A DNA stretch of 32,000 nt from Promethearchaeum syntrophicum (GTDB lineage: Archaea; Asgardarchaeota; Lokiarchaeia; Sigyniarchaeales; Promethearchaeaceae), in the NCBI RefSeq assembly GCF_008000775.2, contig NZ_CP042905.2:3750001-3782000 (forward strand). Reading direction: 5' to 3'. Shown here in pieces: positions 1-29,204 of the stretch. Each line of letters starts with the position of its first letter. Position 1 is the first letter of the stretch. Below the pieces are notes generated by a model that was not told where the DNA came from, did no database searches, and worked only from the letters and a program-made list of their open reading frames with translations. A program made the position numbers and the translations under genes.

Positions 1-240
1 TCCTTCAGCATTTATAGCAGAAATTTGATAATAATAGATTTGACCATTAGTTAAACCTAGATCAGTATAAGTTAAAACATCTCCAACTGAAGTGAAAAAT
101 GATAAACTCCCAGAACTGGTTCCTCTATAAATATTATAGCCCGTAATAGCAGACCCACCATCACTTAAAGGTGCACCCCAAGTTAATTCTATCTGTGCAT
201 CTCCTGGAAATGTTTGAAGATTTTGAGGTGCACTCGGAAA
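1..240 (-). repeat. Partial eighth FN3-coding unit, truncated by the window edge
   Basis: Encodes FPSAPQNLQTFPGDAQIELTWGAPLSDGGSAITGYNIYRGTSSGSLSFFTSVGDVLTYTDLGLTNGQIYYYQISAINAEG, colinear with the units above. Confidence 0.9.
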
Positions 241-5364: not shown

Positions 5365-5698
5365 TTTAATTACACCAACCTAGGATGAATACACCTTTCA
5401 AATTTATGAGACAGAACATAGATATTTTGAGATATACTATCCTTATTGATTAAGTTTGATATCTAATGATTTTTCAATCACTAAAATTTCAAATCCCACA
5501 ATAAAAGTGTATATTCTTAAACAATATTTCTAGATTAAAAATTTTCACTATGTAATTCCATATGGTTACTTAACATAAGAAAAAAGATATGGAGTAAAAG
5601 AATCTCTACAGAATTTGAATAAAAGGTTTCCTGAGATGCATGATCACTCCTAATTTCTAAATTTTCTTTAGATTCAAATCATTCCATAGATTTTAATT

Positions 5699-6259
5699 TT
5701 ATACATTCAAAGCCATTTTTCTTCCTAATTTATAGATTTGAGATAATTTTTCAGGTATTTTTATAATAGGTATGTCTTCCTGCGTTTCTGGATTATAGGT
5801 TTGACATGGAAAAGTATGCAAATCTAAGTGGAAAAAAGGAGCAATTCTTTTGAAGAAATTTTCCGCAGATTCATAATGATGCCGATAAGTCATAATAACA
5901 ACTACAGTTTTACCCCCAAATCCTTCCCATGCCAGAGATTCCATTCGATCCATTGCAATTTTCATTTGTCCAGATAAATACCCCCAATACATTGGAGTTG
6001 CATAAATTACAATATCAGCATTTTTATATGATTTATAGATCTGTTGCATATCATCTTGGATTTTGCACAGGTGTTGAGCAGAATTCTCGCAATATAGACA
6101 CCCTTGACATGGAGTAATCTGCATCTCGTTTAAATAAAAATGATCTTCTTGAACGGTAATTTTTGATTTAAATCCTTCAAGATATTTCTTTACAAGTGTG
6201 TCAGAATTATGATTTTTCCTCGGACTTCCATGCAATATAACAATTCGAACCATTATCAT
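5699..6259 (-). CDS. Iron-sulfur flavoprotein (Isf-like), flavodoxin-fold NAD(P)H-dependent FMN reductase family
   Basis: 186-aa ORF. The N-terminal IVILHGSPRKN is a flavodoxin-like FMN-reductase signature. The compact Cys motif C-QG-C-LY-C-ENSAQHL-C (CX2CX2CX7C) matches the 4Fe-4S motif described for archaeal Isf proteins. Confidence 0.75.
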   Translation of the reverse strand: MIMVRIVILHGSPRKNHNSDTLVKKYLEGFKSKITVQEDHFYLNEMQITPCQGCLYCENSAQHLCKIQDDMQQIYKSYKNADIVIYATPMYWGYLSGQMKIAMDRMESLAWEGFGGKTVVVIMTYRHHYESAENFFKRIAPFFHLDLHTFPCQTYNPETQEDIPIIKIPEKLSQIYKLGRKMALNV

Positions 6260-11348: not shown

Positions 11349-13379
11349 TTATTTTTTCAATGAATTTCTAACTAAATTCTCAACAAAGTCTTCATCGGGA
11401 ATTTCAGGAATAGTAATAAATCCATCTCCCTCTTTTTTCTTTATCCAAGTTTTGGCAGTTTCAATCGCATGGGGATTTCTCGCCCAAGCGCGCCTGGCAA
11501 TACCACAATAAACATCCCAGTCCAATGCAAGCTTTATAATATTATCAACTCGTTCACTACCATCTAAAACCAAACCAAATCCACCGTTGATGACTTTCCC
11601 CGTTCCAACGCCACCACCATTCTGGAGTACAACCATCGTCATTCCCCGAGCTGCATTACCTGCCCATGATTGATGAGCCATATCGGCCATAATATTACTA
11701 CCATCTTTGATATTACTAGTTTCACGGAAAGGACTATCGGTTCCTGAAACATCATGATGATCGCGACCTAACATAACAGGGCCAATCTCGTTATCACGAA
11801 CCATTTCATTGAATTTAAGGGCAATTTTTACCCTTCCCTCCCCATCAGCATATAGTATTCGCGCTTTGGTGCCCACAACCATTTTATTTTCCTTAGCATC
11901 TCTCATCCAAATATAATTATCACGATCTTGACCACGTTTTATTGGACGACTCTCCCAAATCTCTTTGATTATATCACGCGCAGCTATATCTGTTTTATCT
12001 AAATCTTCATCTTTTCTGCTTAAACATACCCATCTAAATGGTCCATAGCCATAATCAAAACAAATAGGTCCTACTAAATCTTCAACATAAGATGGAAAAA
12101 TAAATCCATTTTTTGGATCTTTTAAAATTGCGATATCTTGTGCTCCAGCATCATATACTGCTTTCAGGAAAGAATTACCATAATCCCAAAATTTAGTTCC
12201 CCGATTATGCATAATTTTAATCAGCTCAAATTGTCTACGCAGAGATTTATCGACCATTTTTTTAAACTCATGGAGATCATTCTTAAGCAACTCCCTACCA
12301 TCCTCATATGATAAACCTGCAGGAGTATAACCTCCTTCATATGCTGCATGACAGCTTGTTTGATCTGAAGCTAGTTCTACTTTAATATCATTATCCACTA
12401 CATATTGCCAGAGATCAACTACGTTCCCATTGTATCCAATTGAAACCGACTCTTTACGTTTACGATAATCTTCGACCCAACTAAAAATTTCTTCTAAATT
12501 ATCAGAATGTTTGCCAATCCAACCTTGATCAAACCTCGTTTTTAGTGCTGAAAAATTAACTTCTGCAATAATAGTAATTCCATTCGCAATTTCGACAGCT
12601 TTTCCTTGTGCTCCTGACATTCCACCTAATCCGGAAGTAATATATAAAACTCCTTTCAAATCCTCATCATCAGAATGGTTTAAATATTTTCGGCCTGCAT
12701 TCAATAGTGTTAAGTATGTCCCATGGACGATTCCTTGAGGTCCTATATACATCCAGCCTCCACATGTCATTTGTCCATAGTTACTCACTCCTAATACTTG
12801 AGCTCTCTGAAAATCTTCGGTGTTATCGAACATTCCAATCATGAGCCCATTTGTAAGTATAACTCGAGGGGCATTTCTGGAACTTGGAAACAGCCCGAGT
12901 GGATGCCCTGACATAACAACTAATGTCTGGTTATCTTTCATAATTTCGAGATATTTTTTGATGAGTTGGTATTGCATCCAATTTTGACAGACTTGCGCTG
13001 TGGAGCCGTATGTAACAAGTTCATATGGAAAAAGGGCGATTTCAAAATCAAGATTGTTGTCAATCATTACTTGAATAGCACGACTCTCTTCAATTCCTTT
13101 GTATTCTTCTTGAGGTTTACCGATTAAGGGTCCTTTTGGTCTATATCTATATCCATAAATTCTTCCACGTGTGATCAGTTCATTGAGAAATTCTGGAGCC
13201 AGTTTTTCGTGTAATTCTTTTGGGATATATCGTAGTGCGTTTTTCAATGCAAGAATGGTGTCATTTTCATTTAGATTAAAAGGTCTATTTGGCGCCCTTC
13301 GATATTGTGGGTCAAATTCCGGTTTTTCAGGCAGTTCATTGGGTAATTTAATAATAGTGATAGGGTTTGTTGTATTCAT
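11349..13379 (-). CDS. hutU: Urocanate hydratase (urocanase), long form
   Basis: 676 aa. Diagnostic stretches are YGQMTCGGWMYIGPQGIVHGT, GLGGMSGAQ (NAD site), DQTSCH, GPFRWVC and RDHHDVSGTDSPFRETSNIKDGS. Confidence 0.93.
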   Translation of the reverse strand: MNTTNPITIIKLPNELPEKPEFDPQYRRAPNRPFNLNENDTILALKNALRYIPKELHEKLAPEFLNELITRGRIYGYRYRPKGPLIGKPQEEYKGIEESRAIQVMIDNNLDFEIALFPYELVTYGSTAQVCQNWMQYQLIKKYLEIMKDNQTLVVMSGHPLGLFPSSRNAPRVILTNGLMIGMFDNTEDFQRAQVLGVSNYGQMTCGGWMYIGPQGIVHGTYLTLLNAGRKYLNHSDDEDLKGVLYITSGLGGMSGAQGKAVEIANGITIIAEVNFSALKTRFDQGWIGKHSDNLEEIFSWVEDYRKRKESVSIGYNGNVVDLWQYVVDNDIKVELASDQTSCHAAYEGGYTPAGLSYEDGRELLKNDLHEFKKMVDKSLRRQFELIKIMHNRGTKFWDYGNSFLKAVYDAGAQDIAILKDPKNGFIFPSYVEDLVGPICFDYGYGPFRWVCLSRKDEDLDKTDIAARDIIKEIWESRPIKRGQDRDNYIWMRDAKENKMVVGTKARILYADGEGRVKIALKFNEMVRDNEIGPVMLGRDHHDVSGTDSPFRETSNIKDGSNIMADMAHQSWAGNAARGMTMVVLQNGGGVGTGKVINGGFGLVLDGSERVDNIIKLALDWDVYCGIARRAWARNPHAIETAKTWIKKKEGDGFITIPEIPDEDFVENLVRNSLKK

Positions 13380-13555
13380 AATTTTATTTTGTAATTGAAT
13401 AATAAAAATTTTTCTAAAGAATAATGCATTTCTCCAAAAAAAAGGATTTTACTTAAACTAATTTTAAGATTTCAGGGTATAAATTGATTATAATGATAAA
13501 AATTTGATATTAATTTCTAAAAAATGCAATCTTATTTATATAATAATAAATTTTT
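13380..13555. promoter_or_regulatory. Divergent hutU / hutH-hutI-fhs control region with TATA-like boxes and a ~20-nt direct repeat
   Basis: 176-bp spacer between divergent genes. The TATA-like ATTTATATAA at 13534-13543 lies just upstream of the hutH ATGs (13556, 13562), consistent with a leaderless or short-leader transcript. A TTTTTATTATT-type box (minus sense) lies ~25 nt upstream of the hutU ATG. Direct repeat: TTTCTAAAGAATAATGCATTTCT (13411-13433) and TTTCTAAAAAATGCAATCTT (13514-13533). Confidence 0.35.
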
Positions 13556-15091
13556 ATGGTTATGACTGAAATTTTTCGTTTGGGAATAGATCATTTAACA
13601 CCATTACTAGCCACTAAGATAGCTCGGGGAGAAATTAAAGGAGTATTGACAGAAGAATCAATAAAAAGAGTAAACGAATGCCATGCTACGGTTAATAAAA
13701 TTGCAAAAGGAATAGATCCTGTTTATGCAATTAACACTGGATTTGGTAGTCTCTGTACAACCAAGATATCTTATGAAGATGCAGGAAAATTACAAGAAAA
13801 CTTATTAAAATCACATAGCGTAGGTGTTGGTGATCCGATCGAAAATGAAATTGCCAAATTAATGCTGATTTTGAAGGTACATGCATTATGTCAAGGTTAT
13901 AGCGGCGCATCAATTGGATTAATAGAGCGAATTATATGGCATATCGACAATAATATTATCCCCAAAGTTCCAGAACAAGGATCCGTAGGAGCCTCGGGAG
14001 ATTTATGCCCGTTGGCTCATTTATTTTTACCTTTAATAGGATTAGGAGAACTATCAATTGATGGTGGAAGAACTTATACTACAACTGAAAAATTATTACA
14101 AGAAAAAAATATGGCAAAATTTTCACTAGGTGCTAAAGAAGGCCTTGCTCTTATAAATGGAACACAATTTATGGCCGCTCACGGTATTAAAATTGTAGAA
14201 CGTTTAAAAAATTGTCAAGATCATGCAGATATTATTGCTGCTATTAGTTTAGAAGGATTTTTAGGATCCAAAGCTCCTTTTGATAAACGTTTGCATGAAA
14301 TTCGCCCACATCCTGGAGCCCAAATCGTAGCTGAACGAATTAGAAAATTGTTAAACAAATCAGAATTGATTGAATCGCACAAAGATTGTAATCGAGTTCA
14401 AGATCCTTATAGTTTCAGGTGCATACCTCAAGTACATGGTGCAAGTCGTGACGCTTTAGTTCATTTAGAAGATATCCTAACAATAGAAATAAACTCCGTA
14501 ACTGATAACCCGAACATATTTATAACTGATGGAATTCCGGTAGCTATTTCAGGTGGCGGATTTCACGGGGAACCTATTGCATTACCATTGGATTACGCAG
14601 GTTTGGCAGCATCTGAACTAGGAAATATATCTGATAGGCGAATTTATCTGTTACTTGGAGAAAAAGGAGATTATGGACTACCCGATTATTTAATTGAAGA
14701 ATCTGGTTTAAATTCTGGATTCATGATTACTCAATACCTCACAGCCGCTTTGGTTAGTGAAAATAAATCCTTGTGTTTCCCAGCAAGCGCAGATAGCATT
14801 CCAACAAGCAATGGTGTGGAAGATATTGTTTCAATGGGATCTATTAGTGCTCGAAAAACTCTGAAAATAATCGATAATTTAGAAAAAATTTTAGGTGTGG
14901 AATTATTTTGTGCTTGTCAAGCAATTGATTTTCGACAACCGTTAAAATCTAGTCCTATCTTAGAAAAATGCCTTAAATATGTGAGAACTAAAATCCCACA
15001 TATAAAAAATGATGAAGTTTTATCAAAATACATAGAAACTGCAATTGAAATCGTACGCGGTCAACAATTGCTTATTTTTTTCAATGAATAA
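13556..15091 (+). CDS. hutH: Histidine ammonia-lyase
   Basis: 511 aa. GSVGASGDLCPLAHL contains the Ala-Ser-Gly triad that forms the MIO cofactor. NGTQFM and GGFHGEP are also conserved lyase-family blocks. The start may be ATG 13562 (MTEIF). Confidence 0.93.
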   Translation: MVMTEIFRLGIDHLTPLLATKIARGEIKGVLTEESIKRVNECHATVNKIAKGIDPVYAINTGFGSLCTTKISYEDAGKLQENLLKSHSVGVGDPIENEIAKLMLILKVHALCQGYSGASIGLIERIIWHIDNNIIPKVPEQGSVGASGDLCPLAHLFLPLIGLGELSIDGGRTYTTTEKLLQEKNMAKFSLGAKEGLALINGTQFMAAHGIKIVERLKNCQDHADIIAAISLEGFLGSKAPFDKRLHEIRPHPGAQIVAERIRKLLNKSELIESHKDCNRVQDPYSFRCIPQVHGASRDALVHLEDILTIEINSVTDNPNIFITDGIPVAISGGGFHGEPIALPLDYAGLAASELGNISDRRIYLLLGEKGDYGLPDYLIEESGLNSGFMITQYLTAALVSENKSLCFPASADSIPTSNGVEDIVSMGSISARKTLKIIDNLEKILGVELFCACQAIDFRQPLKSSPILEKCLKYVRTKIPHIKNDEVLSKYIETAIEIVRGQQLLIFFNE

Positions 15092-15151
15092 ATTTAAAAT
15101 TTAAAAGTTTAGTTAAGGATATTAATAGAGAATAAGTTTAAATAAAAATAG

Positions 15152-16420
15152 GTGGAAAATTTGGTTCAAAAAACGCTCGTAGGGCCTTTTAAGCAGATAT
15201 TAACTATGAATAACCTCCCCGATAAGGGTCCGATCAAGGATAATCAATTGGAAATAATTGAAGGTGGAGGTATATTAATTGAAGATGAGATAATTGCAGC
15301 GGTGTATGAAAAAAAGCAGTTTGATGAAGAACGGAAACATTATAAAAAGAAAAGTGGAGATAAAAGTTATTTTAAAGTAGAGAAAGATGCCGTTCTCGTT
15401 CCAGGATTTATAGATTCACACACTCACATGATATATGCAGGATCTAGAGCGAAAGATTACGCAAGAAGAAACGCTGGTGAAAGTTATTTAGATATTGCAA
15501 GAAAAGGAGGGGGAATTCTGAGTACGGTAAAAAAAACCCGCGAAGCTAGTTTTAAACAGTTAAAACAATTACTTTTTGAAAGAGGCTTAACCCATATTAA
15601 ATGCGGAATTACAACCACTGAGGTTAAAAGTGGATATGGGCTTGATCTGGAAAACGAATTAAAAACCCTAAGAGTAATAAAGAATTTAAAAGAATCAAGG
15701 TCTTTAATTCCTGAATTAATCCCAACTTGTTTATCAGCCCATGTAAAACCGGCAGAATTTGAAACCCATGAAGAATATTTAAATTATATTCTAAAAGAAA
15801 TTCTACCGATTATCAAAGAAGAAAAACTTAGTAACCGCGTTGATATTTTTATTGAAGAAGGCGCTTTTACTCCAGAAATCTCTTTGAAATTCTTAGAAAC
15901 GGCAAAAAAAATGGGTTTTAAAATAACTGTACATGCAGATCAATTTTCTACTGGAGGATCTGAAGTTGCCGCTAAAGTTGGAGCCATAAGTGCAGATCAT
16001 CTTGAGGCGAGTGGGGAAACTGAATTTTCACTGTTAAAACAAGGAAATGTTATTGCCACAGTACTTCCAGGAGCATCAATGGGATTAGGAATGCATTATG
16101 CCCCCGCCCGAAGAATGCTGGATGCTGGTTTATGTGTAGTAATTGCATCTGATTGGAATCCAGGGACTGCACCGATGGGAGATTTATTAATTCAAGCAGC
16201 GGTTTTGGGTGCAAATCAAAAACTTTCCATTGCTGAAACGCTGTCAGCCATTACAAATCGAGCAGCAATGGCTTTAGACTTAAATGACAGAGGCATTATC
16301 AAACCGGGATACTTAGCAGATTTCATTGCGTTTCCATGTTCGGATCATGAAGATATTTTTTATAATCAAGGAGTCCTAAGACCAAATCAAATCTGGAGGA
16401 AAGGAACCAGAATAATTTAG
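15152..16420 (+). CDS. hutI: Imidazolonepropionase
   Basis: 422 aa. GFIDSHTHMIYAG (HxH metal site), VHADQF and ASDWNPG are amidohydrolase/HutI blocks. The start is uncertain: GTG 15152 (track), or TTG 15161 which sits 5 nt after AGGTGG. Confidence 0.9.
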   Translation: MENLVQKTLVGPFKQILTMNNLPDKGPIKDNQLEIIEGGGILIEDEIIAAVYEKKQFDEERKHYKKKSGDKSYFKVEKDAVLVPGFIDSHTHMIYAGSRAKDYARRNAGESYLDIARKGGGILSTVKKTREASFKQLKQLLFERGLTHIKCGITTTEVKSGYGLDLENELKTLRVIKNLKESRSLIPELIPTCLSAHVKPAEFETHEEYLNYILKEILPIIKEEKLSNRVDIFIEEGAFTPEISLKFLETAKKMGFKITVHADQFSTGGSEVAAKVGAISADHLEASGETEFSLLKQGNVIATVLPGASMGLGMHYAPARRMLDAGLCVVIASDWNPGTAPMGDLLIQAAVLGANQKLSIAETLSAITNRAAMALDLNDRGIIKPGYLADFIAFPCSDHEDIFYNQGVLRPNQIWRKGTRII

Positions 16421-16433
16421 AGATGATAAAAAT

Positions 16434-18104
16434 ATGAAACAAGATATAGAAATCGCAAGGGAAGCGGAACTTCGACCGATCTATGAAATTGCAGCAAAAA
16501 TGGGAATACCGGAAGAAGCATTAGAACCTTATGGTAAAAATAAAGCAAAAATTAGTCTTGATTTCTGTTTTAAATGTAAAAAACAGCTTAAACCAGGGAA
16601 ACTAATCTTGGTAACCGCTACCAGCCCTACCCCCGCAGGTGAAGGAAAAACTACTACTTCAATTGGTTTAACCGAAGCACTCAATCGATTAAATAAACAA
16701 GCAGCTGTGTGTATTAGAGAACCTTCATTAGGTCCTGTATTCGGAATAAAAGGAGGAGCAGCTGGAGGGGGATATTCTCAAGTTGTACCAATGGAAGATA
16801 TTAATTTGCATTTTACGGGAGATCTTCATGCTATTACCTCTGCTCATAATTCTTTAGCTGCTTTAATGAACAATGCAATTTATCGAAGAAAAATTGATTT
16901 AGATCCTAAACGTATTTTGTGGAATCGAGTAATGGATGTTAACGATCGTGCACTAAGAAATATAATAGTAGGTTTAGGTGGCCATACTGATGGAGTATCG
17001 CATCAAAGTAGCTTTGATATAACCGCTGCTAGCGAATTAATGGCAATTTTATGCCTTTCAAATAATATAGCTGAACTAAAGGAAAAAATTGGAAATATTC
17101 TTCTTGGTTTTAATTACGCTGGAGATCCAGTCTATTGTCGCGATTTAGGTGTAGAGGGTGCCATTACTGTTTTACTTAAAGATGCTATTAAACCCAATTT
17201 AGTACAGACCATGGAAAATAACCCGGCTTTTGTACATGGAGGTCCATTCGCGAATATCGCTCAAGGATACAATACAATAATTGCTGCCCAAATGGCCCTT
17301 CATACTAATGATATTGTTGTTACTGAAGCGGGATTTGGAAGTGATCTTGGAGCCGAGAAATTTTTCGATTTAGTTTGTCCATATGGAGGATTTACACCAA
17401 GTCTTACTGTAATGGTGACAACTATTCGCGCATTAAAAATGCATGGAGGTCAATTACTTGATAGAATTACTCTAAAAAATACCGAAACATTACACAAGGG
17501 TTTATCAAATTTAGGTCGCCATTTAGAAAATACTAAGAAGTTTGGTGTGGATTGCATTGTTGCACTAAATAAAATCATGTCGGATACAGATGAAGAAATC
17601 CAAATCGTTGTTGACTATTGTAAAGAACTTGGATTTGATATTGCAATCTCTGAAGTTTGGGAAAAAGGTGGAGAAGGTGGTGAAGAATTAGCAAAACTTG
17701 TGTTAAGACACCTTGATGAAGAGAAAACTGATTATCATCAGCTTTACGACTGGAATATGCCAGTAGAAGATAAAATTAGAATAATTGCTAAAGAAATTTA
17801 CCGAGCTGATGACATTGAATTATTGGATGAAGCAATAGATGATATCAAGTTTATTAACAAACTAAAATTGGATAATTTACCGATATGTATTGCAAAAACT
17901 CAAAAATCCTTCTCTGATGATCCTAAATTAATCGGAGCGCCTACTGGTTTTACTATGAAAGTAAGAAGAGTTATAATTGCTTCAGGAGCAGGATTTTTAA
18001 TCCCGATAACAGGAAAAATGTTACGAATGCCCGGATTACCTTTAATCCCAGCGGCAGAATCCATTGATATCGATTATGATGGTGATGTTGTTGGGCTTTT
18101 CTAA
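16434..18104 (+). CDS. fhs: Formate--tetrahydrofolate ligase (formyl-THF synthetase)
   Basis: 556 aa. The TSPTPAGEGKTTTSIGL P-loop, the FDITAASE and GPFANIAQG blocks, and the length are all typical of FTHFS. It starts 13 nt after hutI. Confidence 0.93.
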   Translation: MKQDIEIAREAELRPIYEIAAKMGIPEEALEPYGKNKAKISLDFCFKCKKQLKPGKLILVTATSPTPAGEGKTTTSIGLTEALNRLNKQAAVCIREPSLGPVFGIKGGAAGGGYSQVVPMEDINLHFTGDLHAITSAHNSLAALMNNAIYRRKIDLDPKRILWNRVMDVNDRALRNIIVGLGGHTDGVSHQSSFDITAASELMAILCLSNNIAELKEKIGNILLGFNYAGDPVYCRDLGVEGAITVLLKDAIKPNLVQTMENNPAFVHGGPFANIAQGYNTIIAAQMALHTNDIVVTEAGFGSDLGAEKFFDLVCPYGGFTPSLTVMVTTIRALKMHGGQLLDRITLKNTETLHKGLSNLGRHLENTKKFGVDCIVALNKIMSDTDEEIQIVVDYCKELGFDIAISEVWEKGGEGGEELAKLVLRHLDEEKTDYHQLYDWNMPVEDKIRIIAKEIYRADDIELLDEAIDDIKFINKLKLDNLPICIAKTQKSFSDDPKLIGAPTGFTMKVRRVIIASGAGFLIPITGKMLRMPGLPLIPAAESIDIDYDGDVVGLF

Positions 18105-19107: not shown

Positions 19108-20688
19108 CTACAGATAATCCTTCGGTTTTTCCCATTGTGCTTTCTTCGCAAATTTTTTTACTTCTCGTTGTGCCCTTCTTAAAGGGGCTAAAGTTCCCGG
19201 TCCTCCCACGCACCCATTAGGGCAAGCCATTCCTTCAACAATCAATGGTTTTGGATCGAGTGCTCCTTTTTTGATTTGATTTAATAAACTCATACAGTTT
19301 TTTAAAGTATCTGCAGATACAATTGGAATCTCAACATCTTGTCCAATAATTGCTTTGGTTTGCTCAAGTACTGCATTTGCTACTCCACCAGCAACGGGAA
19401 AACCTCTTCCCAGTGAAGAAGCATCTTGCATCTCCTTTTCTGGGGGAATTTTTGTAGGATCTATTGTAAAAGCTTGAAAAATGGCGACTAGTTCTTCAAA
19501 AGTCATTACAAAATCCACGACTTCTGCCACATTTGGGATGAAACACTCTTCCTTTTTAGATATACATGGTCCAATGAATACAACAATAGCATCTGGAGTA
19601 TCTTTTTTGATCTTTTTTGCAATTTCTACCATTGGAGCAAATGATTCAGAAATATTTAGTTTAGATAATTCAGGATAATTTTTCTCTGCAGCCAATGCCC
19701 ATGAGGTACAACAACTGGTTCCGATGAATGTTCGACAATTACTTTCAGATTCTTCATTCTCTTTACAATTTTCCCGTTTTTTAATTAATTCGACCAATTC
19801 TTCAGTTTCATTCATCACAACTACATCAGCTCCATAGGCCACTTCTCGAACATCCATAAAACCGACTTCTTTTAAAGCACCTTTTAATTTGCCTGGGGTG
19901 ACTAAAGGTCCAAATTGACTTACAAACGCAGGAGCAATTTCTGCAACAACAGGTTTTTTTCCTTTAAGCGCTGAAATTATTTGGACGATTTCTGATTTTT
20001 CTGCAATTGCTCCAAAAGGACAAGACACAATACACATTCCGCAAGAAACACATTTATTTTGGTCGATATCCGCAAAACCGTCTTTATCTGAACTGATTGC
20101 TTTTACCCCGCATGCCGCTGCACATGGTCTTTCTCGGTATGCAATTGCGTTGTATGGACACACTTGCTCACATTTACCACATCTTATACAAAGATCTTGA
20201 TCTATATGGGATCTGTTATTAATTATCGAAACCGCATTTTTTGGACAAACTATCGTGCAAGGGTGAGCAATACAACCTCTACATAAATCAGTAACAATAT
20301 AAGAATGTTCAGGGCAACGTTCACATCCAACTTTTATGACATTCACAATAGGCTTTTTAATCACTTTCTTATCGGTTAAGGAATATATAACATCATCATC
20401 ATTAATCGGTCCATGAGCGCCGAATTCCCTTAAATCCATTCCGAACGCAAGCCTGACTCGTTCTCTAACAACTGCACGTTCCTTGAATACCGATTCTCGA
20501 TATGTTGGAGTATCTTTATCAATAATTTGATATGGAATATGCTCAATATATGTCGGTGGTTTATTTTCTACGACCATTCGAGCAACAGCTGAAAGAACCC
20601 GCCTTCGAATATCAATTACCGGCGTGTATAGACCGCGCGTTTTTTCAAATATATTTAATCTGGGTAACGGCATATTAAAATCCTTCAA
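19108..20688 (-). CDS. [FeFe]-hydrogenase catalytic subunit with N-terminal multi-[4Fe-4S] domain (group-B-like architecture)
   Basis: 526-aa ORF. The H-cluster signatures are present in order: GTSCCTSW (L1), IGPCISKKEE (L2), VEGMACPNGCVGGPG (L3). Upstream are two CxxCxxCxxxCP ferredoxin motifs (CIRCGKCEQVCP, CVSCGMCIVSCP) plus extra Cys (CERCPEH..CRGCIAHPC..CP). The likely start is MPLPRL (M6). Confidence 0.85.
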   Translation of the reverse strand: MKDFNMPLPRLNIFEKTRGLYTPVIDIRRRVLSAVARMVVENKPPTYIEHIPYQIIDKDTPTYRESVFKERAVVRERVRLAFGMDLREFGAHGPINDDDVIYSLTDKKVIKKPIVNVIKVGCERCPEHSYIVTDLCRGCIAHPCTIVCPKNAVSIINNRSHIDQDLCIRCGKCEQVCPYNAIAYRERPCAAACGVKAISSDKDGFADIDQNKCVSCGMCIVSCPFGAIAEKSEIVQIISALKGKKPVVAEIAPAFVSQFGPLVTPGKLKGALKEVGFMDVREVAYGADVVVMNETEELVELIKKRENCKENEESESNCRTFIGTSCCTSWALAAEKNYPELSKLNISESFAPMVEIAKKIKKDTPDAIVVFIGPCISKKEECFIPNVAEVVDFVMTFEELVAIFQAFTIDPTKIPPEKEMQDASSLGRGFPVAGGVANAVLEQTKAIIGQDVEIPIVSADTLKNCMSLLNQIKKGALDPKPLIVEGMACPNGCVGGPGTLAPLRRAQREVKKFAKKAQWEKPKDYL

Positions 20689-21312: not shown

Positions 21313-22503
21313 ATGCAACTCGTTCGCCAAATTCAAATGAATCGATCTCGTCTGTTGGATGAGATTTCCTTTCGTTCCAAGAATTTGTTCAATGTTGCAA
21401 CCTATAAAATACGACAACGATTTTTTGAAGAGGGAAAATGGATTCGATATAATTAATTGTGGAAAACGCTTAAAAACCATGAAGCATACCAATCTCTTCA
21501 AAAGATGTGTGGATCACATCCCCCTCAACAGGTTCTCAAACAAGTGGATCGAAATTTTAAATCATTTTTTAAAGCGATCAAAGTCTGGAAAAAAACACCC
21601 TTCAAATTCACATCCATGCCTAAACTCCCCCATTATAAACGTAAAGATGGAAGAAATTTGGTCTACTTTACTAGTTTACAATGTTGGTTAAAAAATGGGT
21701 ATGTATTGCTGACACAAAAGATGATGAATTCAGGTTTTCCGAAAATCCCAACGGATTTACCTTGTGTGAAAGGGGTTCGCATTGTCCCCTTTGGAGATCG
21801 ATACAACATCGAATTAATCTATAATTATAACCCCCAAAACTTACACTTAAACAAATCACATATTCTGGGTATCGATTTAGGACTAGCAAACATCGTAACT
21901 GCATCAGATAACATTGGAAATGTTCCATTGATTATCAAAGGCGGTGTTGTAAAGTCAATAAATCAATTCTATAATAAAGAATTGGCTAAGTATAAATCAT
22001 TGTCTAAAAAATGTAATGATAAACACATTACTAATCGAATTTTAAAGATCCATCGTAAACGCAATAATAAAATACGCGACTTTTTTCATAAAACATCTCG
22101 TAAAATCGTAAATCATTGCATTGAAAACGATATTGGTACGATAGTTCTCGGATATAACGAAGGATGGAAACAAAACATTAACATCGGTAAAAAAAATAAT
22201 CAAAATTTTGTTTCGATTCCATTTCTAAAGCTAATTCAACAAATCGAATATAAAAGTAAGATGTTCGGTATCGATGTGGTTAGAATCACTGAAGAATTCA
22301 CATCGCAAACCTGTTCGCATTGTGGTATTGTTAAAAAATCCAATCGGAAACATCGGGGATTATATGTGTGTTCTGAATGTGGATTGGTTCTCAATGCTGA
22401 TGTGAATGCAAGTAAAAACATATTACAAAAAGGAATCCCTAAGTCCATCTGGATAGGGGATAGAGGGCGTTTGGGCCGCCCAATAGTGTTAAAAATCTTG
22501 TAA
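21313..22503 (+). pseudogene. tnpB: IS605 OrfB / IS1341-type TnpB RNA-guided endonuclease frame interrupted by one in-frame TAA (21454-21456)
   Basis: The track ORF 21457-22503 (348 aa, TTG start) continues in the same frame upstream to ATG 21313 (MQLVRQIQMNRSRLLDEISFRSKNLFNVATYKIRQRFFEEGKWIRYN-TAA-LWKTLKNHEAY...). This gives the usual ~396 codons. RuvC-type residues are intact (GIDLGLAN, IVLGYNEGW, NADVNASKNI), as is the zinc finger CSHCG...CSECG. Confidence 0.85.
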
Positions 22504-22725: not shown

Positions 22726-22797
22726 GGGGTGTTAGTCTAGTCGTATGATGGTGGCCTCCAGAGTCACTGGTCGCGGGTTCAATTCCCACACACCCCA
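22726..22797 (+). tRNA. tRNA-Trp (anticodon CCA), no encoded 3' CCA, no intron
   Basis: Hand fold of 72 nt. Acceptor stem GGGGTGT/ACACCCC has 7 perfect bp. Anticodon stem GTGGC/GTCAC has one G-U. The loop is CT-CCA-GA. The variable loop is TGGTC. The T arm is GCGGG-TTCAATT-CCCAC, and the discriminator is A. Atypical points: a C50-A64 mismatch, a weak 3-bp D stem, and a D loop (AGTCGTA) without GG. Confidence 0.75.
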
Positions 22798-27456: not shown

Positions 27457-27857
27457 TTTAGATCACCTTTTTATATTTAAAAAAATGCAAGTCGTTTAAT
27501 TTGCGATTAAAAGTTAGCTGAGTACAAATATAAAAGTTTGCTTCTGTTTTTTAGTTAAATTTGTTAGTATTTTAACCAAAAGTGAGCTTAAGAAAGATTT
27601 TTACTCAAAATGTAAAATTTTCACCACGTTTTTTCTGAAATGGGAAAAGAATGGGAGAAATACAAATATGGACCAATTTTATTGATAAAATTGAGGTTTT
27701 AGAACAAAATTGTATCTGCTTCAAATTATCTAAATTGGTTTACCATATGATTCTTTTTTTGAAAAAAATATCCCATTATGCATGGGGAATAAATTTTTTT
27801 TAAGCTTTGTAGCTTAATCCCAAAAACCATAAATGAAAATATAAAGCACTTTTGATG

Positions 27858-27890
27858 TATTTATAATGTAATTATAATGCAATTATAATG
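27858..27890 (+). repeat. Three tandem 11-bp direct repeats (TATTTATAATG / TAATTATAATG / CAATTATAATG)
   Basis: Read directly at 27858-27868, 27869-27879 and 27880-27890. Each unit carries a TATA-like TTATAA core, and the period is one helical turn. The repeats end 48 nt upstream of the ATG at 27938. Confidence 0.8.
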
Positions 27891-27937
27891 CACATCCTTA
27901 AATAGAAGCGAAATTTTTAATCCTTGGTTTTATAAAC

Positions 27938-28240
27938 ATGGAAATAACTACCGAAGCGAAATCATTTATAACAGAACAGTTTCAAGAAATTGAAAATCCA
28001 GTTTTGGTTGTATTTGAAAGAGTGTATCGAGGATGATGTGGGGTAGAGAGAGTTACCAGTGTAGTACCAGCGGATCTCAGCCAAATTCCTGATAAAGATC
28101 CCTTTACCCAAAAAACAATGGAGAACTTTCAATACCCACTATACCTTCAAAAAGAATTAGAACATCTATGGGGCAGCAAAACAAAAATTGATGTCGCTGG
28201 ATGGTCTGCATTTAGAAGATTAGTAATTATCCAAGGTTAA
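27938..28240 (+). CDS. HesB/IscA-like small protein with in-frame TGA (28034-28036), candidate selenocysteine
   Basis: My own translation is MEITTEAKSFITEQFQEIENPVLVVFERVYRG-[TGA]-CGVERVTSVVPADLSQIPDKDPFTQKTMENFQYPLYLQKELEHLWGSKTKIDVAGWSAFRRLVIIQG* (100 codons). It is absent from the ORF track because TGA splits it. The N-terminus and the G-[U]-C-G turn match the A-type carrier pattern (IscA ..SGCSG.., Cys35). Neither fragment is a credible gene alone. Confidence 0.6.
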
Positions 28241-28243
28241 AAT

Positions 28244-28318
28244 TTCATACGAATGAAGCAAATCTATAAACTTTGATGATTTGCAGACACCCAAAGCAAT
28301 TGGGATTGAGATTCATTT
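28244..28318 (+). promoter_or_regulatory. Structured 3' UTR: candidate SECIS-like stem-loop(s) with AUGA...GA arrangement, followed by a T6 tract
   Basis: A perfect 7-bp helix GCAAATC (28258-28264) / GATTTGC (28278-28284) closes a 13-nt loop TATAAACTTTGAT. ATGA (28253-28256) lies immediately 5' and A-GA (28285-28287) immediately 3'. A second hairpin is CCCAA (28290-28294) / TTGGG (28300-28304). AATGAA (28252-28257) can alternatively pair with TTCATT (28312-28317). T6 is at 28316-28321. Confidence 0.35.
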
Positions 28319-28334
28319 TTTAGCATATTTTTTA

Positions 28335-29204
28335 TTATAATTTTACTATTTTATCCATCGAACCGCTTGAAAACCCAGATAAATCTATTGTGACAAAGGC
28401 AAAGCCCATTTTTTTTAAATTGGAATTTACATCCTCTCTAATTCCTCTATTATTTATTAATTCAATTAACCTTGCATCCGATTCAATACGAGCGAGTAAT
28501 AAATCTGATGGTAAAAGCTTATGAATTCGAACTCTTAAAGGAACTGTGGTGTTTTTAATTAATGTTCTGAGAAAAATTTCCGCTTTATCAATTTTATTAA
28601 GCAGATCTACAGTTATTTCCGTATTATAAGGAATTCTTGATGCTAAACATGCTTGAGAAGATATATTTCGGGAGGGTAATGATAAGATTTGAGTAAGGGT
28701 AATAATATCAGATTTAGTAAATTTCCCTTCTGCTAAAGGAGATTGAACATTACTCTCTTTTAAGGCCAATAAACCAGGTCTATGAAGCCCTAGATCCGAA
28801 AAATTAGTGCCATCAATAACTAAATCATGTCCATCATGTTTTGCAATTTCGATCAATATGTCTAAAATTCTTTTTTTGCAATGATAACATCGATTTGGTA
28901 AATTCTCACGAATTTCCCTTATTTGGAGACTATTTAGAGTATATATTGTTATTGGGATATTGAGGAGTGTGGAAAATTGTTTCGCTTGATTAATTTCTTG
29001 CGTAGGAGTTAAGGGGGAGTAAATGAAAACTCCTTTCACTTCCTTGCCAAATTTTTTAGCAAAAAATAATACAAGAGTAGAATCAATTCCGCCTGAAAAT
29101 GCAACAAGAATCTTCTTTCCACTGAAAAAACTTTTTACAATTCGAATTTTTTCTTTCAGGATTTCTGGGATATCTTCTCTACTTAAAATTGTCATTACAA
29201 CCAA
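28335..29204 (-). CDS. LarE-family PP-loop ATP-dependent sulfur transferase (TIGR00268-type ATP-utilising enzyme)
   Basis: 289-aa ORF. The PP-loop is ILVAFSGGIDSTLV. NRCYHCKK, SSQACLASRIPY and RVRIH....LARIE are blocks I recognise from the LarE/TIGR00268 family. The probable true start is ATG 29195 (MTILS) rather than TTG 29204. Confidence 0.75.
   Translation of the reverse strand: MVVMTILSREDIPEILKEKIRIVKSFFSGKKILVAFSGGIDSTLVLFFAKKFGKEVKGVFIYSPLTPTQEINQAKQFSTLLNIPITIYTLNSLQIREIRENLPNRCYHCKKRILDILIEIAKHDGHDLVIDGTNFSDLGLHRPGLLALKESNVQSPLAEGKFTKSDIITLTQILSLPSRNISSQACLASRIPYNTEITVDLLNKIDKAEIFLRTLIKNTTVPLRVRIHKLLPSDLLLARIESDARLIELINNRGIREDVNSNLKKMGFAFVTIDLSGFSSGSMDKIVKL

What the first reader, a model, noticed from the sequence alone, without database searches (positions are those of the whole stretch)
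28244..28318. 3' UTR stem-loop with AUGA...GA flanks: possible eukaryote-like SECIS in an archaeal context
Archaeal Sec decoding uses a 3'-UTR SECIS. The 94-nt convergent spacer after the TAA contains a perfect 7-bp helix (28258-28264 / 28278-28284). It is flanked 5' by AUGA and 3' by A-GA, with an A-rich 13-nt apical loop containing AA. That is the layout of the sheared G.A/A.G kink-turn core of eukaryotic SECIS elements, not the GAA/A-bulge form I recall from methanogens. A second 5-bp hairpin (28290-28304) and a closing pairing (AATGAA with TTCATT) could make a three-way junction. There are caveats. I could not find a convincing helix I. The helix is short. An A.A apposition (28257/28285) sits between the putative quartet and the helix. 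The structures could also simply be a bidirectional terminator for the convergent genes, since a T6 tract follows.
Basis: partly seen in the sequence, partly recalled or inferred. Interest (0 to 1): 0.7.

Follow-up and report, generated by a model that had tools for sequence, protein, structure and literature searches.

The report
Loki-type SECIS after new selenoprotein gene
The stem-loop is a genuine selenocysteine-insertion signal of the eukaryote-like kind already described in Lokiarchaeia; the modest news is that it serves a small protein family not yet listed among archaeal selenoproteins.

Summary
The interpretation, a eukaryote-like SECIS in an archaeon, is supported. The element class has been known since 2016 as the "lokiSECIS", or Asgard eSECIS-like type I.

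The upstream ORF (27938-28240) has an in-frame TGA at codon 33. That TGA is kept in all 6 close orthologs, two of them from Promethearchaeum MAGs, and in 5 distant homologs that I read at the DNA level. Three homologs carry Cys at that position. Third-codon-position bias holds on both sides of the TGA.

The 3' UTR has AUGA, then 29 nt forming a hairpin, then GA. This is exactly the lokiSECIS spacing. It also has a closing helix I (28241-47/28307-13), a second hairpin with a GCAA-containing loop, and a T6 tract.

I built a covariance model only from 58 PrxL lokiSECIS elements. Its single significant hit in the window is this element (19.9 bits, E about 0.003; next best 8.6 bits). It also detects the elements of all other TGA-carrying family members I read whose 3' UTR lies fully on the contig.

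Helix II and the second hairpin covary strongly across the family. Two Cys forms have no such element. One keeps a decayed copy in which AUGA has become AUUGA.

The protein has an IscA/HesB-like fold and is distantly related to the bacterial "CC/Se motif" (seleno)protein family. It is absent from published Asgard and archaeal selenoprotein lists.

Verdict: new member of a known kind.

The parts
27897..27907 (+). Promoter-like box CTTAAATAGAA (TATA-like), 31-41 nt upstream of the start codon
   Evidence: The block GCACA-YCTTTAAATAGAA is conserved upstream of all 6 orthologs. Its function as an archaeal TATA/BRE is inferred, not tested.
27938..28240 (+). Selenoprotein gene of 100 codons plus stop, in an IscA/HesB-like fold family with an invariant [U/C]-C-G motif
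   Evidence: Translation is and orthologs. The family has 22 clusters. Third-position bias holds on both sides of the TGA: 176 vs 69/22 upstream and 407 vs 72/40 downstream. The AlphaFold2 model has pLDDT 93 and its top PDB match is IscA 1r94_A. NCBIfam NF041239 'CC/Se motif family (seleno)protein' matches 15 of 16 members, below its cut-off.
28034..28036 (+). In-frame UGA (codon 33), the inferred selenocysteine codon in the context G-U-C-G
   Evidence: The codon is TGA in the window and in all 6 orthologs, and in distant members L007, L008, L009, L091 and L093. Three homologs have Cys (TGC/TGT) at this position. TGA is an ordinary stop for 3 of 27 ORFs in the window.
28241..28247 (+). SECIS helix I, 5' strand (AAUUUCA)
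   Evidence: It pairs with 28307-28313 and is predicted by RNAalifold. There is one compensatory change (U-A to C-G) and one U.G to C-G change among the orthologs. PrxL lokiSECIS have an analogous helix, AAUCCC/GGGAUU.
28251..28256 (+). G(-2), A, then AUGA: the 5' half of the SECIS core (sheared G.A/A.G quartet inferred)
   Evidence: AUGA is invariant in all 11 TGA-carrying family members that were read. G at -2 and AUGA are invariant in 58 PrxL lokiSECIS. AUGA is disrupted to AUUGA in the Cys form L010.
28257..28285 (+). Helix II plus apical loop, 29 nt: A.A apposition (28257/28285), 7 Watson-Crick pairs (28258-64/28278-84), and loop UAUAAACUUUGAU (28265-77) with a conserved UAAAC and GAU
   Evidence: 29 nt equals the 9 bp + 11 nt + 9 bp of the published lokiSECIS and of the PrxL elements. 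Across the family every pair shows double changes, with 0 of 500 shuffles as good. A non-Watson-Crick bottom pair occurs in 23 of 56 PrxL elements.
28286..28288 (+). GA, the 3' half of the SECIS core, followed by C
   Evidence: GAC is invariant in 58 PrxL lokiSECIS and in all TGA forms of this family whose element appears in the model alignment; it is GAU in the Cys form L010.
28290..28304 (+). Second hairpin, CCCAA-AGCAA-UUGGG, on the 3' side of the internal loop
   Evidence: It is conserved in the orthologs. PrxL lokiSECIS have an equivalent hairpin with a GCAA or GUGA loop. It covaries across the family.
28307..28313 (+). SECIS helix I, 3' strand (UGAGAUU)
28316..28321 (+). T6 tract, the probable transcription termination signal of the selenoprotein mRNA
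   Evidence: A T-run directly follows the structure in all orthologs and in PrxL loci. Its role as an archaeal oligo-T terminator is inferred from established knowledge. The bacterial-type scan calls no intrinsic terminator here.

Best explanation
Window 28241-28315 (+) is the 3'-UTR selenocysteine insertion sequence (SECIS) of the 100-codon gene at 27938-28240. It belongs to the eukaryote-like type used by Lokiarchaeia (lokiSECIS, or Asgard eSECIS-like type I).

The mRNA folds into a three-way junction with these parts:
- helix I (28241-47/28307-13);
- an internal loop whose AUGA (28253-56) and GA (28286-87) form the kink-turn-like non-Watson-Crick core;
- helix II, capped by an A-rich loop;
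- a small 3' hairpin with a GCAA-containing loop.

A T6 tract ends the transcript just downstream.

The folded element recruits the archaeal Sec-specific elongation factor carrying Sec-tRNA(Sec). This may be direct, or more likely through a still unknown kink-turn-binding adaptor. As a result, the UGA at 28034-36, about 220 nt upstream, is read as selenocysteine in the motif G-U-C-G of an IscA/HesB-fold protein.

Shown here: the conserved TGA, the Sec/Cys pairing, coding constraint across the TGA, the conserved and covarying RNA structure, its match to known lokiSECIS, and its loss or decay in Cys forms.

Inferred, not shown: the sheared G.A pairs, the binding factor, actual Sec insertion, and termination at the T tract.
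For: 1. The in-frame TGA is conserved in 7 of 7 close orthologs and in 5 distant members read at the DNA level. Database entries show 'W' there only because they were called with genetic code 4 ('translates_to_query: no'). Three clusters have Cys at that column and C-G is invariant after it.

2. Third-codon-position excess appears on both sides of the TGA in one frame. TGA is a normal stop elsewhere in the window.

3. The geometry AUGA + 29 nt + GA, an A-rich loop start, G at -2 and C after GA match the published lokiSECIS and 58 PrxL elements.

4. Covariance model R1 was built from PrxL elements only. It scores window 28250-28307(+) at 19.9 bits, E about 0.0025-0.0056, over the full model length. 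The next hit in the window is 8.6 bits. Family members whose UTR is complete on the contig score 14.8-35.1 bits. The best background hit in 229.5 kb searched on both strands is 13.9 bits.

5. Among close orthologs there are 2 compensatory pairs plus G-U changes, and RNAalifold finds the same three helices. Across the family, 14 of 14 pairs have double changes, 87.9% of cells are paired, 0 of 500 shuffles do as well, and slid controls reach at most 53%.

6. G.U pairs, and the model hit on the + strand only, fix the strand.

7. Cys forms L094 and L095 have no such element. Cys form L010 keeps the hairpin but has AUUGA and GAU at otherwise invariant positions.

8. PrxL elements fold into the same three-way junction followed by a T-run.
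Against: - There is no experimental evidence of Sec insertion, and no Sec machinery gene or tRNA-Sec lies in this window.
- The model score of 19.9 bits is far below those of the PrxL training elements (47-72 bits). E-values from the shortened calibration are rough.
- The strict lokiSECIS features are only partly met. There are 7 rather than 9 Watson-Crick pairs. The 'ultraconserved' G at the last loop position falls into register only if one accepts a 1-nt shorter loop plus a bulged U.
- The family-wide covariation count was made on an alignment fitted to the model's structure.
- The close orthologs are only slightly diverged, and both compensatory changes among them come from one sequence, L002.
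- Rfam has no match. The 2016 paper reports the same negative result for known lokiSECIS when searched with archaeal, eukaryotic and bacterial SECIS models.
Confidence: 0.88

Rival explanations
1. The hairpins are only a transcription terminator, possibly bidirectional, for the two convergent genes, and the AUGA/GA flanks are coincidental.
For: A T6 tract follows the structure. The genes are convergent with a 94-nt spacer. The single-sequence fold is not significant, with z = -1.6 on + and -1.4 on -. The ATGA-N29-GA pattern alone is at chance frequency.
Against: Archaeal termination needs oligo-T, not a hairpin (established knowledge), and no terminator-like site is called here. Unpaired nucleotides (AUGA, UAAAC, GAU, GAC, GCAA) are conserved down to 24-36% protein identity, which a terminator stem would not require. 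The element matches a model of known SECIS elements. It occurs with the TGA and is missing from two Cys forms, one of which (L095) has a plain hairpin plus T-run instead. G.U pairs fit only the + strand.
Confidence: 0.04
2. The TGA is a true stop, because the gene is a pseudogene or two short ORFs, and the UTR structure is some other kink-turn RNA, for example an L7Ae-binding regulatory or stability element or a small RNA.
For: Standard gene callers split the ORF. Fragments ending at 'YRG', or starting after the TGA, exist in protein databases (P0020, P0007, P0011, P0012). The protein has no confident Pfam assignment.
Against: The TGA is kept at the same codon in every ortholog, and the downstream 67 codons show strong third-position bias in the same frame. 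Full-length homologs align across the position with Cys. AlphaFold2 gives one compact domain spanning both halves at pLDDT 93. The database fragments are what code-11 gene calling produces on a selenoprotein gene.
Confidence: 0.03
3. UGA is decoded here as tryptophan or another standard amino acid, through code-4-like reassignment or near-cognate read-through, without selenocysteine.
For: Public gene calls translate the codon as W.
Against: The W comes from the gene caller's code choice. TGA terminates 3 of 27 ORFs in this window. The homologous residue is Cys and never a TGG-encoded Trp in the loci read. The gene carries the SECIS type that accompanies Sec genes in this lineage.
Confidence: 0.03

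Closest known systems
lokiSECIS (Mariotti et al. 2016, PMC4989117), also called Asgard eSECIS-like type I (Huang et al. 2024, PMC11227280), as found after PrxL, VhuU and HdrA-VhuD genes of Lokiarchaeia
   Same: - It lies in the 3' UTR, 12 nt after the stop (about 15 nt in PrxL).
- It has AUGA and GA separated by exactly 29 nt, an A-rich loop start, and G at -2 and C after GA.
- It has a closing helix I, a 3' hairpin with a GCAA-type loop, and a T-run after the structure.
- It is detected by a covariance model trained only on PrxL elements.
   Different: - Only 7 Watson-Crick pairs are present, flanked by A.A at the bottom and U.U at the top (or U-A plus a bulged U), where the consensus has 9 bp.
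- The loop reads UAUAAAC...GAU rather than AAAAA...AG.
- Helix I is AAUUUCA/UGAGAUU instead of AAUCCC/GGGAUU.
- The model score is 20 bits against 47-72 for PrxL elements.
- It serves a gene family not in the published Asgard selenoprotein lists.
Eukaryotic SECIS (Rfam RF00031 SECIS_1), type I
   Same: [quoted passage not shown]
   Different: There is no Rfam hit even at E <= 10. The upper helix is shorter, about 9 positions. An extra hairpin is inserted on the 3' side of the internal loop. No SBP2 is known in Lokiarchaeota (section heading and text in PMC4989117).
Canonical archaeal (Methanococcales/Methanopyrus) SECIS
   Same: Both lie in the 3' UTR of an archaeal selenoprotein mRNA. The VhuD/HdrA elements of methanogens also carry AUGA_[G/A]A.
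   Different: This element has no GAA_A asymmetric bulge and no GC-rich 10-bp lower and 3-bp upper stems. The UTR is AT-rich.
CC/Se motif family (seleno)protein (NCBIfam NF041239, Pfam PF28096; first predicted in Moorella thermoacetica), and more distantly IscA/HesB (PF01521, PDB 1r94) and the HesB-like selenoprotein TIGR01911
   Same: It is a protein of about 100 aa with Sec or Cys next to a Cys in a beta-hairpin turn. NF041239 matches 15 of 16 family members, with a best E of 3.8e-9. PF28096 gives weak hits. The predicted fold matches IscA with probability 1.0 and TM 0.53-0.56.
   Different: Scores are below the curated cut-offs, 25.4 vs 40 bits for the close ortholog P0003. TIGR01911 does not hit. 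Here the family uses a 3'-UTR Loki-type SECIS rather than a bacterial in-ORF SECIS. It is not listed among the 11 archaeal selenoprotein families.

Membership tests
lokiSECIS / Asgard eSECIS-like type I | Located in the 3' UTR close to the stop of a gene with an in-frame UGA | tested here: met
   AUGA starts 13 nt after the TAA. The TGA at codon 33 is conserved in 7 of 7 orthologs.
lokiSECIS / Asgard eSECIS-like type I | AUGA immediately 5' of the stem and GA (or AA) immediately 3' | tested here: met
   AUGA is at 28253-56 and GA at 28286-87. AUGA is invariant in all 11 TGA-carrying family members read, and GA in the ten whose element is in the model alignment.
lokiSECIS / Asgard eSECIS-like type I | 9-bp stem and 11-nt apical loop, that is 29 nt between AUGA and GA (Mariotti 2016). 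Huang 2024's looser model allows a 7-15 bp stem with <=2 mismatches and an 8-20 nt loop. | tested here: met
   The spacing is exactly 29 nt. It holds 7 Watson-Crick pairs plus A.A and U.U end appositions, which is 9 positions with 2 mismatches. A non-paired bottom position occurs in 23 of 56 PrxL elements. The strict 9-Watson-Crick-pair version is not met.
lokiSECIS / Asgard eSECIS-like type I | First five loop nucleotides A-rich (loop positions 3-5 are invariant A in PrxL) | tested here: met
   In the 11-nt register the loop begins AUAAA. AAA is invariant in the orthologs.
lokiSECIS / Asgard eSECIS-like type I | Ultraconserved G at the last loop position, usually preceded by A, followed by A pairing with an invariant U | tested here: inconclusive
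   The window has ...UUUGAU|GAUUUGC. G-A falls into register only with a 10-nt loop and a bulged U28277, which is how the model aligned L006 and L001. Family member L009 has the canonical ...UUAG|A.
lokiSECIS / Asgard eSECIS-like type I | Recognised by a covariance model of known lokiSECIS elements | tested here: met
   R1 was built from 58 PrxL elements. It gives 19.9 bits, E 0.0025 and a full-length match as the top hit of the window. The background maximum is 13.9 bits in 229.5 kb searched on both strands. The published lokiSECISearch itself was not available.
lokiSECIS / Asgard eSECIS-like type I | Base pairing maintained by compensatory change | tested here: met
   close orthologs, MAFFT alignment; family-wide, alignment fitted to the model.
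lokiSECIS / Asgard eSECIS-like type I | Directs Sec insertion at UGA | not testable with these tools
   This needs 75Se labelling, mass spectrometry or a reporter assay.
Eukaryotic SECIS (Rfam RF00031) | Match to the Rfam covariance model | tested here: not met
   There is no SECIS family hit at the gathering threshold or at E <= 10.
Canonical methanogen SECIS | GAA_A asymmetric bulge between a GC-rich lower stem and a short all-GC upper stem | tested here: not met
   Reading 28241-28334 shows no such arrangement. The helices are AU-rich.
CC/Se motif family (seleno)protein, NF041239 / PF28096 | Score at or above the curated cut-off of the family model | tested here: not met
   P0003 scores 25.4 bits against a cut-off of 40. 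15 of 16 members match at E <= 1, with a best E of 3.8e-9. PF28096 is 'weak' or 'faint'. The protein is a distant relative, not a member by the curated threshold.
CC/Se motif family (seleno)protein, NF041239 / PF28096 | Adjacent Cys-Cys or Sec/Cys motif | tested here: met
   [U/C]-C-G is invariant across 16 aligned members.
IscA/HesB fold (PF01521) | Structural similarity to IscA | tested here: met
   The AlphaFold2 model has pLDDT 93. Foldseek's top hit is 1r94_A (IscA) with probability 1.0, E 2.4e-3 and TM 0.53/0.56. PF01521 is seen only at E about 0.02-0.03, so sequence membership is not established.

The most novel reading that the evidence does not exclude
Two things may be new.

First, the gene served by this SECIS may found a previously unreported archaeal selenoprotein family. 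It is an IscA/HesB-fold, U-C-G-motif relative of the bacterial CC/Se family, and it is widespread in Loki-type metagenomic contigs. In public data it is visible only as mis-translated 'W' proteins or as fragments.

Second, the Loki SECIS may in general be a three-way junction. Its conserved 3' hairpin, with a GCAA or GUGA loop, and its closing helix are not mentioned in the main text of the two published descriptions. That hairpin could be a second recognition module for the unknown Asgard SECIS-binding factor.
Probability: 0.55. Interest if true: 0.45.

Novelty: new member of a known kind. Interest (0 to 1): 0.38.

Why it matters
Asgard SECIS elements are the proposed evolutionary bridge between archaeal and eukaryotic selenocysteine decoding. 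Their binding factor is still unknown.

This locus adds an independent gene family to that picture:
- The published lists contain 7 Asgard and 11 archaeal selenoprotein families, and this one is on neither list.
- Its SECIS is a divergent but recognisable variant of the Loki type, so it widens the set of sequences that define which nucleotides are truly required.
- It comes with natural controls: Cys forms with no SECIS, and one with a decayed SECIS.

The extra 3' hairpin and helix I, shared with PrxL elements, suggest that the functional unit is larger than the published AUGA-stem-loop-GA core. That bears on the design of binding and reporter experiments.

In practical terms, these genes are currently split or mis-translated in public annotation.

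Tried and rejected
- **Rfam.** The gathering-threshold scan of the whole window and the permissive scan of 27800-28450 gave no SECIS hit. This is uninformative, because the 2016 paper reports that archaeal, eukaryotic and bacterial SECIS models also miss known lokiSECIS.
- **Plain pattern search.** ATGA-N29-GA occurs at chance frequency, so the motif alone proves nothing.
- **Single-sequence folding.** It is not significant on either strand.
It has no compensatory support and clashes with the core and with helix I.
- **Second R1 hit, window 5645-5685(-).** It sits 14 nt after the stop of ORF 5699-6259. It scores 8.0 bits, E = 2, within background, and the ORF has no TGA. I treat it as chance.
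- **R1 hit L006:13986-14040.** At 12.3 bits it lies inside a 468-aa ORF on the other strand and lacks AUGA. It is chance.
- **HesB-like selenoprotein TIGR01911.** I considered it for the protein but there is no hit.
- **Pfam on the window protein alone.** No family was found.
- **Protein pattern scan.** The genome-contig scan used a pattern with W/C at the Sec position, which cannot match TGA, so only 2 loci came back through the other pattern.
- **Tool limits.** The AFDB fold library was unavailable. The supplement of PMC4989117, which holds the lokiSECIS alignments, is not held, so I rebuilt a comparator set from PrxL loci instead.
Full report
**Observation.**
- TAA stop at 28238-40 and a 94-nt spacer to the convergent PP-loop ATPase gene (28335-29204, minus strand).
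- AUGA at 28253-56.
- A perfect 7-bp helix, 28258-64 with 28278-84, and a 13-nt loop.
- An A.A apposition at 28257/28285.
- GA at 28286-87.
- A second hairpin at 28290-28304.
- A T6 tract at 28316-21.

Taken alone this is not beyond chance. ATGA-N29-GA occurs 28 times in the window against 28.8 expected. The UTR's folding energy has a z-score of -1.6. Rfam reports nothing but a tRNA-Trp in the window and no SECIS family even at E <= 10.

**The upstream gene.** Reading 27938-28240 in one frame gives 100 codons with a single in-frame TGA at codon 33 (28034-36), in the context VYRG-U-CGVER.

A word-indexed protein search found four homologs at 83-89% identity, all showing 'W' at that position. 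Their contigs show the codon is TGA. The W is an artefact of code-4 gene calling. Two further orthologous loci come from Promethearchaeum sp. MAGs (Lokiarchaeia), again with TGA.

In pairwise comparison of the seven coding sequences, differences concentrate at third codon positions. Counts are given for positions 1/2/3:
- upstream of the TGA: 69/22/176;
- downstream of the TGA: 72/40/407.

Both halves are therefore translated in this one frame. TGA is an ordinary stop for 3 of 27 ORFs in the window, which excludes a genome-wide reassignment.

An exhaustive HMMER search of 1.84 billion representatives found 22 clusters of proteins of about 100 aa.
- Most carry the code-4 'W' at the Sec column.
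- Three carry Cys there (P0010, P0013, P0022).
- Several are fragments that end at ...YRG or begin just after the TGA. This is what code-11 gene calling does to a selenoprotein gene.
- The only invariant residues besides one Ala are the Cys-Gly that follow the Sec/Cys column.

I confirmed TGA at the DNA level in five distant members: L007, L008, L009, L091 and L093. I confirmed TGC/TGT in the three Cys forms. This is the classical Sec/Cys signature of a selenoprotein family.

**The RNA in orthologs.** The 3' UTR of the six close orthologs aligns with the window at 87% mean column identity. RNAalifold, given no hint, returns three helices:
- the second hairpin.

My hand-drawn structure gives 91.7% paired cells against at most 52% when partners are slid. 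There is one compensatory change in helix I (U-A to C-G), one in helix II (C-G to U-A), and several G-C/G-U or A-U/G-U changes. The sample is small and both double changes come from L002.

It also overlaps the AUGA core and the helix I 3' strand.

**The RNA in distant family members.** Homologs with only 24-36% protein identity carry the same arrangement after their stop codons, with quite different stem sequences:
- L007: AUGA-UCUUCAUC...GAUGGAGG-GA
- L008: AUGA-A-AUUUAUC...GAUAAAU-G-GA
- L009: AUGA-UGGGUUCAU-ACAAAUCUUAG-AUGAAUCUU-GAC
- L091: AUGA-AGAUUCAUC-GUAAAGUUGUU-GAUGAAUCU-GAC
- L093: AUGA-CGAUUCAAU-...-AUUGAAUUC-GAC

Each is followed by a small hairpin with a GCA(A)-containing loop.

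**Comparison with known elements.** Mariotti et al. 2016 (PMC4989117) describe the Lokiarchaeota SECIS as follows:
- AUGA directly before a 9-bp stem;
- an 11-nt loop whose first five nucleotides are mostly A and whose last is an ultraconserved G;
- GA directly after the stem.

Archaeal, eukaryotic and bacterial SECIS models all failed to detect these elements. Huang et al. 2024 (PMC11227280) generalise this to Asgard 'eSECIS-like' type I and II models.

The window has exactly 29 nt (9 + 11 + 9) between AUGA and GA.

To compare against real sequences, I took Lokiarchaeia Prx-like selenoprotein sequences from the 2024 paper's supplement. I used them to fetch 80 PrxL loci from metagenomes, including contigs of the original Loki's Castle assembly. 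From these I extracted 58 distinct elements. They are strikingly uniform:
- G at -2, then AUGA;
- a 9-position stem ending in an invariant U;
- a loop with invariant A at positions 3-5 and a final G;
- an invariant A opening the 3' arm;
- GAC after the stem.

The bottom stem position is non-paired in 23 of 56 of them.

Most PrxL elements fold as a three-way junction:
- a closing helix, AAUCCC with GGGAUU;
- the SECIS stem;
- a 3' hairpin AACCU-(Y)GCAA/GUGA-AGGUU abutting the closing helix, followed by a T-run.

The window's element has the same modules in the same order.

**Covariance-model test.** Model R1 was built only from the 58 PrxL elements, covering the core plus the 3' hairpin (56 positions, 14 pairs). 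I searched the whole window on both strands with filters off.
- Window 28250-28307(+) scores 19.9 bits, E = 0.0025, matching model positions 1-56. It is the only hit below E = 1; the next scores 8.6 bits.
- The six orthologs score 20.3-26.8 bits.
- L009 scores 35.1 bits, L093 19.5, L091 18.6 and L007 14.8.
- L008 is cut by the contig end.
- In 229.5 kb of PrxL-flanking Loki DNA searched on both strands, every hit above 47 bits is a PrxL-type SECIS. The best background hit is 13.9 bits.

E-values from the shortened calibration are rough. The window's element is clearly a divergent relative rather than a typical PrxL-type copy.

On the model-derived alignment of the 12 family elements:
- all 14 pairs show compensatory double changes;
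- 87.9% of cells pair;
- no shuffle of 500 reaches any of the five measures;
- slid controls stay at or below 53%.

The caveat is that this alignment is fitted to the structure.

**Natural controls.** Two Cys forms have no such element in the 79-92 nt of UTR available. L095 instead has a plain hairpin plus T-run.

The third Cys form, L010, has codon TGC. It retains a near-canonical hairpin (AGCAAGUUU-AAAAACUUAAG-AAAUUUGCU), but AUGA is broken by an inserted U to give AUUGA, and GAC has become GAU. These are positions that are invariant in functional elements. I read this as a fossil SECIS left after Sec-to-Cys conversion.

**The protein.**
- AlphaFold2 on the 16-sequence alignment gives a confident single domain, pLDDT 93.1 and pTM 0.83.
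- The best solved-structure match is E. coli IscA (1r94_A; probability 1.0, TM 0.53/0.56). Next is a model containing B. subtilis YneR.
- NCBIfam NF041239, 'CC/Se motif family (seleno)protein', matches 15 of 16 members with a best E of 3.8e-9, but below its cut-off.
- Precomputed Pfam PF28096 (CC_Se_fam) hits are weak.
- PF01521 is marginal, and TIGR01911 (HesB-like selenoprotein) does not hit.
- The 2026 review (PMC13188914) lists NF041239 as a predicted bacterial selenoprotein family. It lists 11 archaeal selenoprotein families that do not include it.
- The 2024 Asgard survey lists seven families, none of which is this one.
- No public source names these proteins.

**Mechanism.**

*Shown here:* a conserved UGA under coding constraint, paired with a conserved, covarying 3'-UTR structure of the Loki SECIS type.

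*Inferred from established knowledge of SECIS function:* AUGA and GA form tandem sheared G.A pairs, a kink-turn-like core at the base of helix II. The A.A at 28257/28285 extends the non-canonical helix. A SECIS-binding activity recognises this core and the A-rich loop, and delivers aSelB with Sec-tRNA(Sec) to the ribosome paused at UGA 28034-36.

That activity is unknown in Asgard archaea: the 2016 paper's results carry a section titled 'SBP2 Is Not Detected in Lokiarchaeota'. An L7Ae-family protein is my own guess.

Sec next to Cys in an IscA-like fold suggests a redox or metal/Fe-S-handling role. This is speculative.

**Verdict.**
- The element is a new, somewhat divergent member of a known class.
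- The modest novelty lies in the host gene family.
- A second possible novelty is that the helix I plus 3' hairpin architecture is shared with PrxL elements but is not mentioned in the main text of the two papers. Figures and supplements could not be checked.

Noticed in passing
L011-L090 (PrxL loci), e.g. L048:754-809; window 28290-28313: Known PrxL lokiSECIS elements fold as a three-way junction. A closing helix (AAUCCC/GGGAUU) and a conserved 3' hairpin with a GCAA or GUGA loop follow the GA core, and then a T-run. Neither paper's main text mentions this hairpin. It covaries modestly in PrxL, with 3 of 5 pairs showing double changes.
   Followed up: partly
L010:428-480: A Cys-form homolog (codon TGC) still carries a near-canonical lokiSECIS hairpin with a 9-bp stem and the loop AAAAACUUAAG. 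Its AUGA is broken to AUUGA and its GAC has changed to GAU. This looks like a fossil SECIS left after Sec-to-Cys conversion.
   Followed up: partly
window 5645-5685 (-): A weak SECIS-like AUGA...GA hairpin lies 14 nt after the stop of a flavodoxin/iron-sulfur-flavoprotein-like ORF (5699-6259, minus strand). R1 scores it only 8.0 bits, E = 2, and the ORF has no in-frame TGA. It is probably chance.
   Followed up: partly
L045, L048, L050, L063, L067, L073, L086, L089: Several PrxL loci have a second strong R1 hit (47-71 bits) about 700 nt from the first. This suggests tandem selenoprotein genes, each with its own SECIS.
   Followed up: no
window 27863-27907: Three direct copies of ATTATAATG[TC] sit just upstream of a promoter-like box (GCACA-YCTTTAAATAGAA) that is conserved in all orthologs of the selenoprotein gene. 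This may be a regulatory site.
   Followed up: no
window 1-5379 (-): A single ORF of at least 1793 aa runs off the window start. It has an N-terminal signal-peptide-like segment and internal repeats about 1.8 kb apart. This explains why ORF listing showed no long ORF in the first 5.7 kb.
   Followed up: partly
window 21457-22503 (+) and 22726-22797 (+): A 348-aa ORF with C-terminal CxxC...CxxC looks like a TnpB/IS605 OrfB-type protein. It lies just upstream of the only tRNA in the window, tRNA-Trp. I did not run a family search on it.
   Followed up: no
window 11349-18104: By their sequences, these ORFs look like a histidine-degradation cluster followed by formate-tetrahydrofolate ligase: urocanate hydratase-like, histidine ammonia-lyase-like and imidazolonepropionase-like ORFs. 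An [FeFe]-hydrogenase-like ORF lies at 19108-20688. These identifications are from my reading of the translations only.
   Followed up: no
L093:575-1015: In one distant family member the selenoprotein gene is followed on the same strand by a thioredoxin-domain gene (PF00085). This hints at a redox partner.
   Followed up: no
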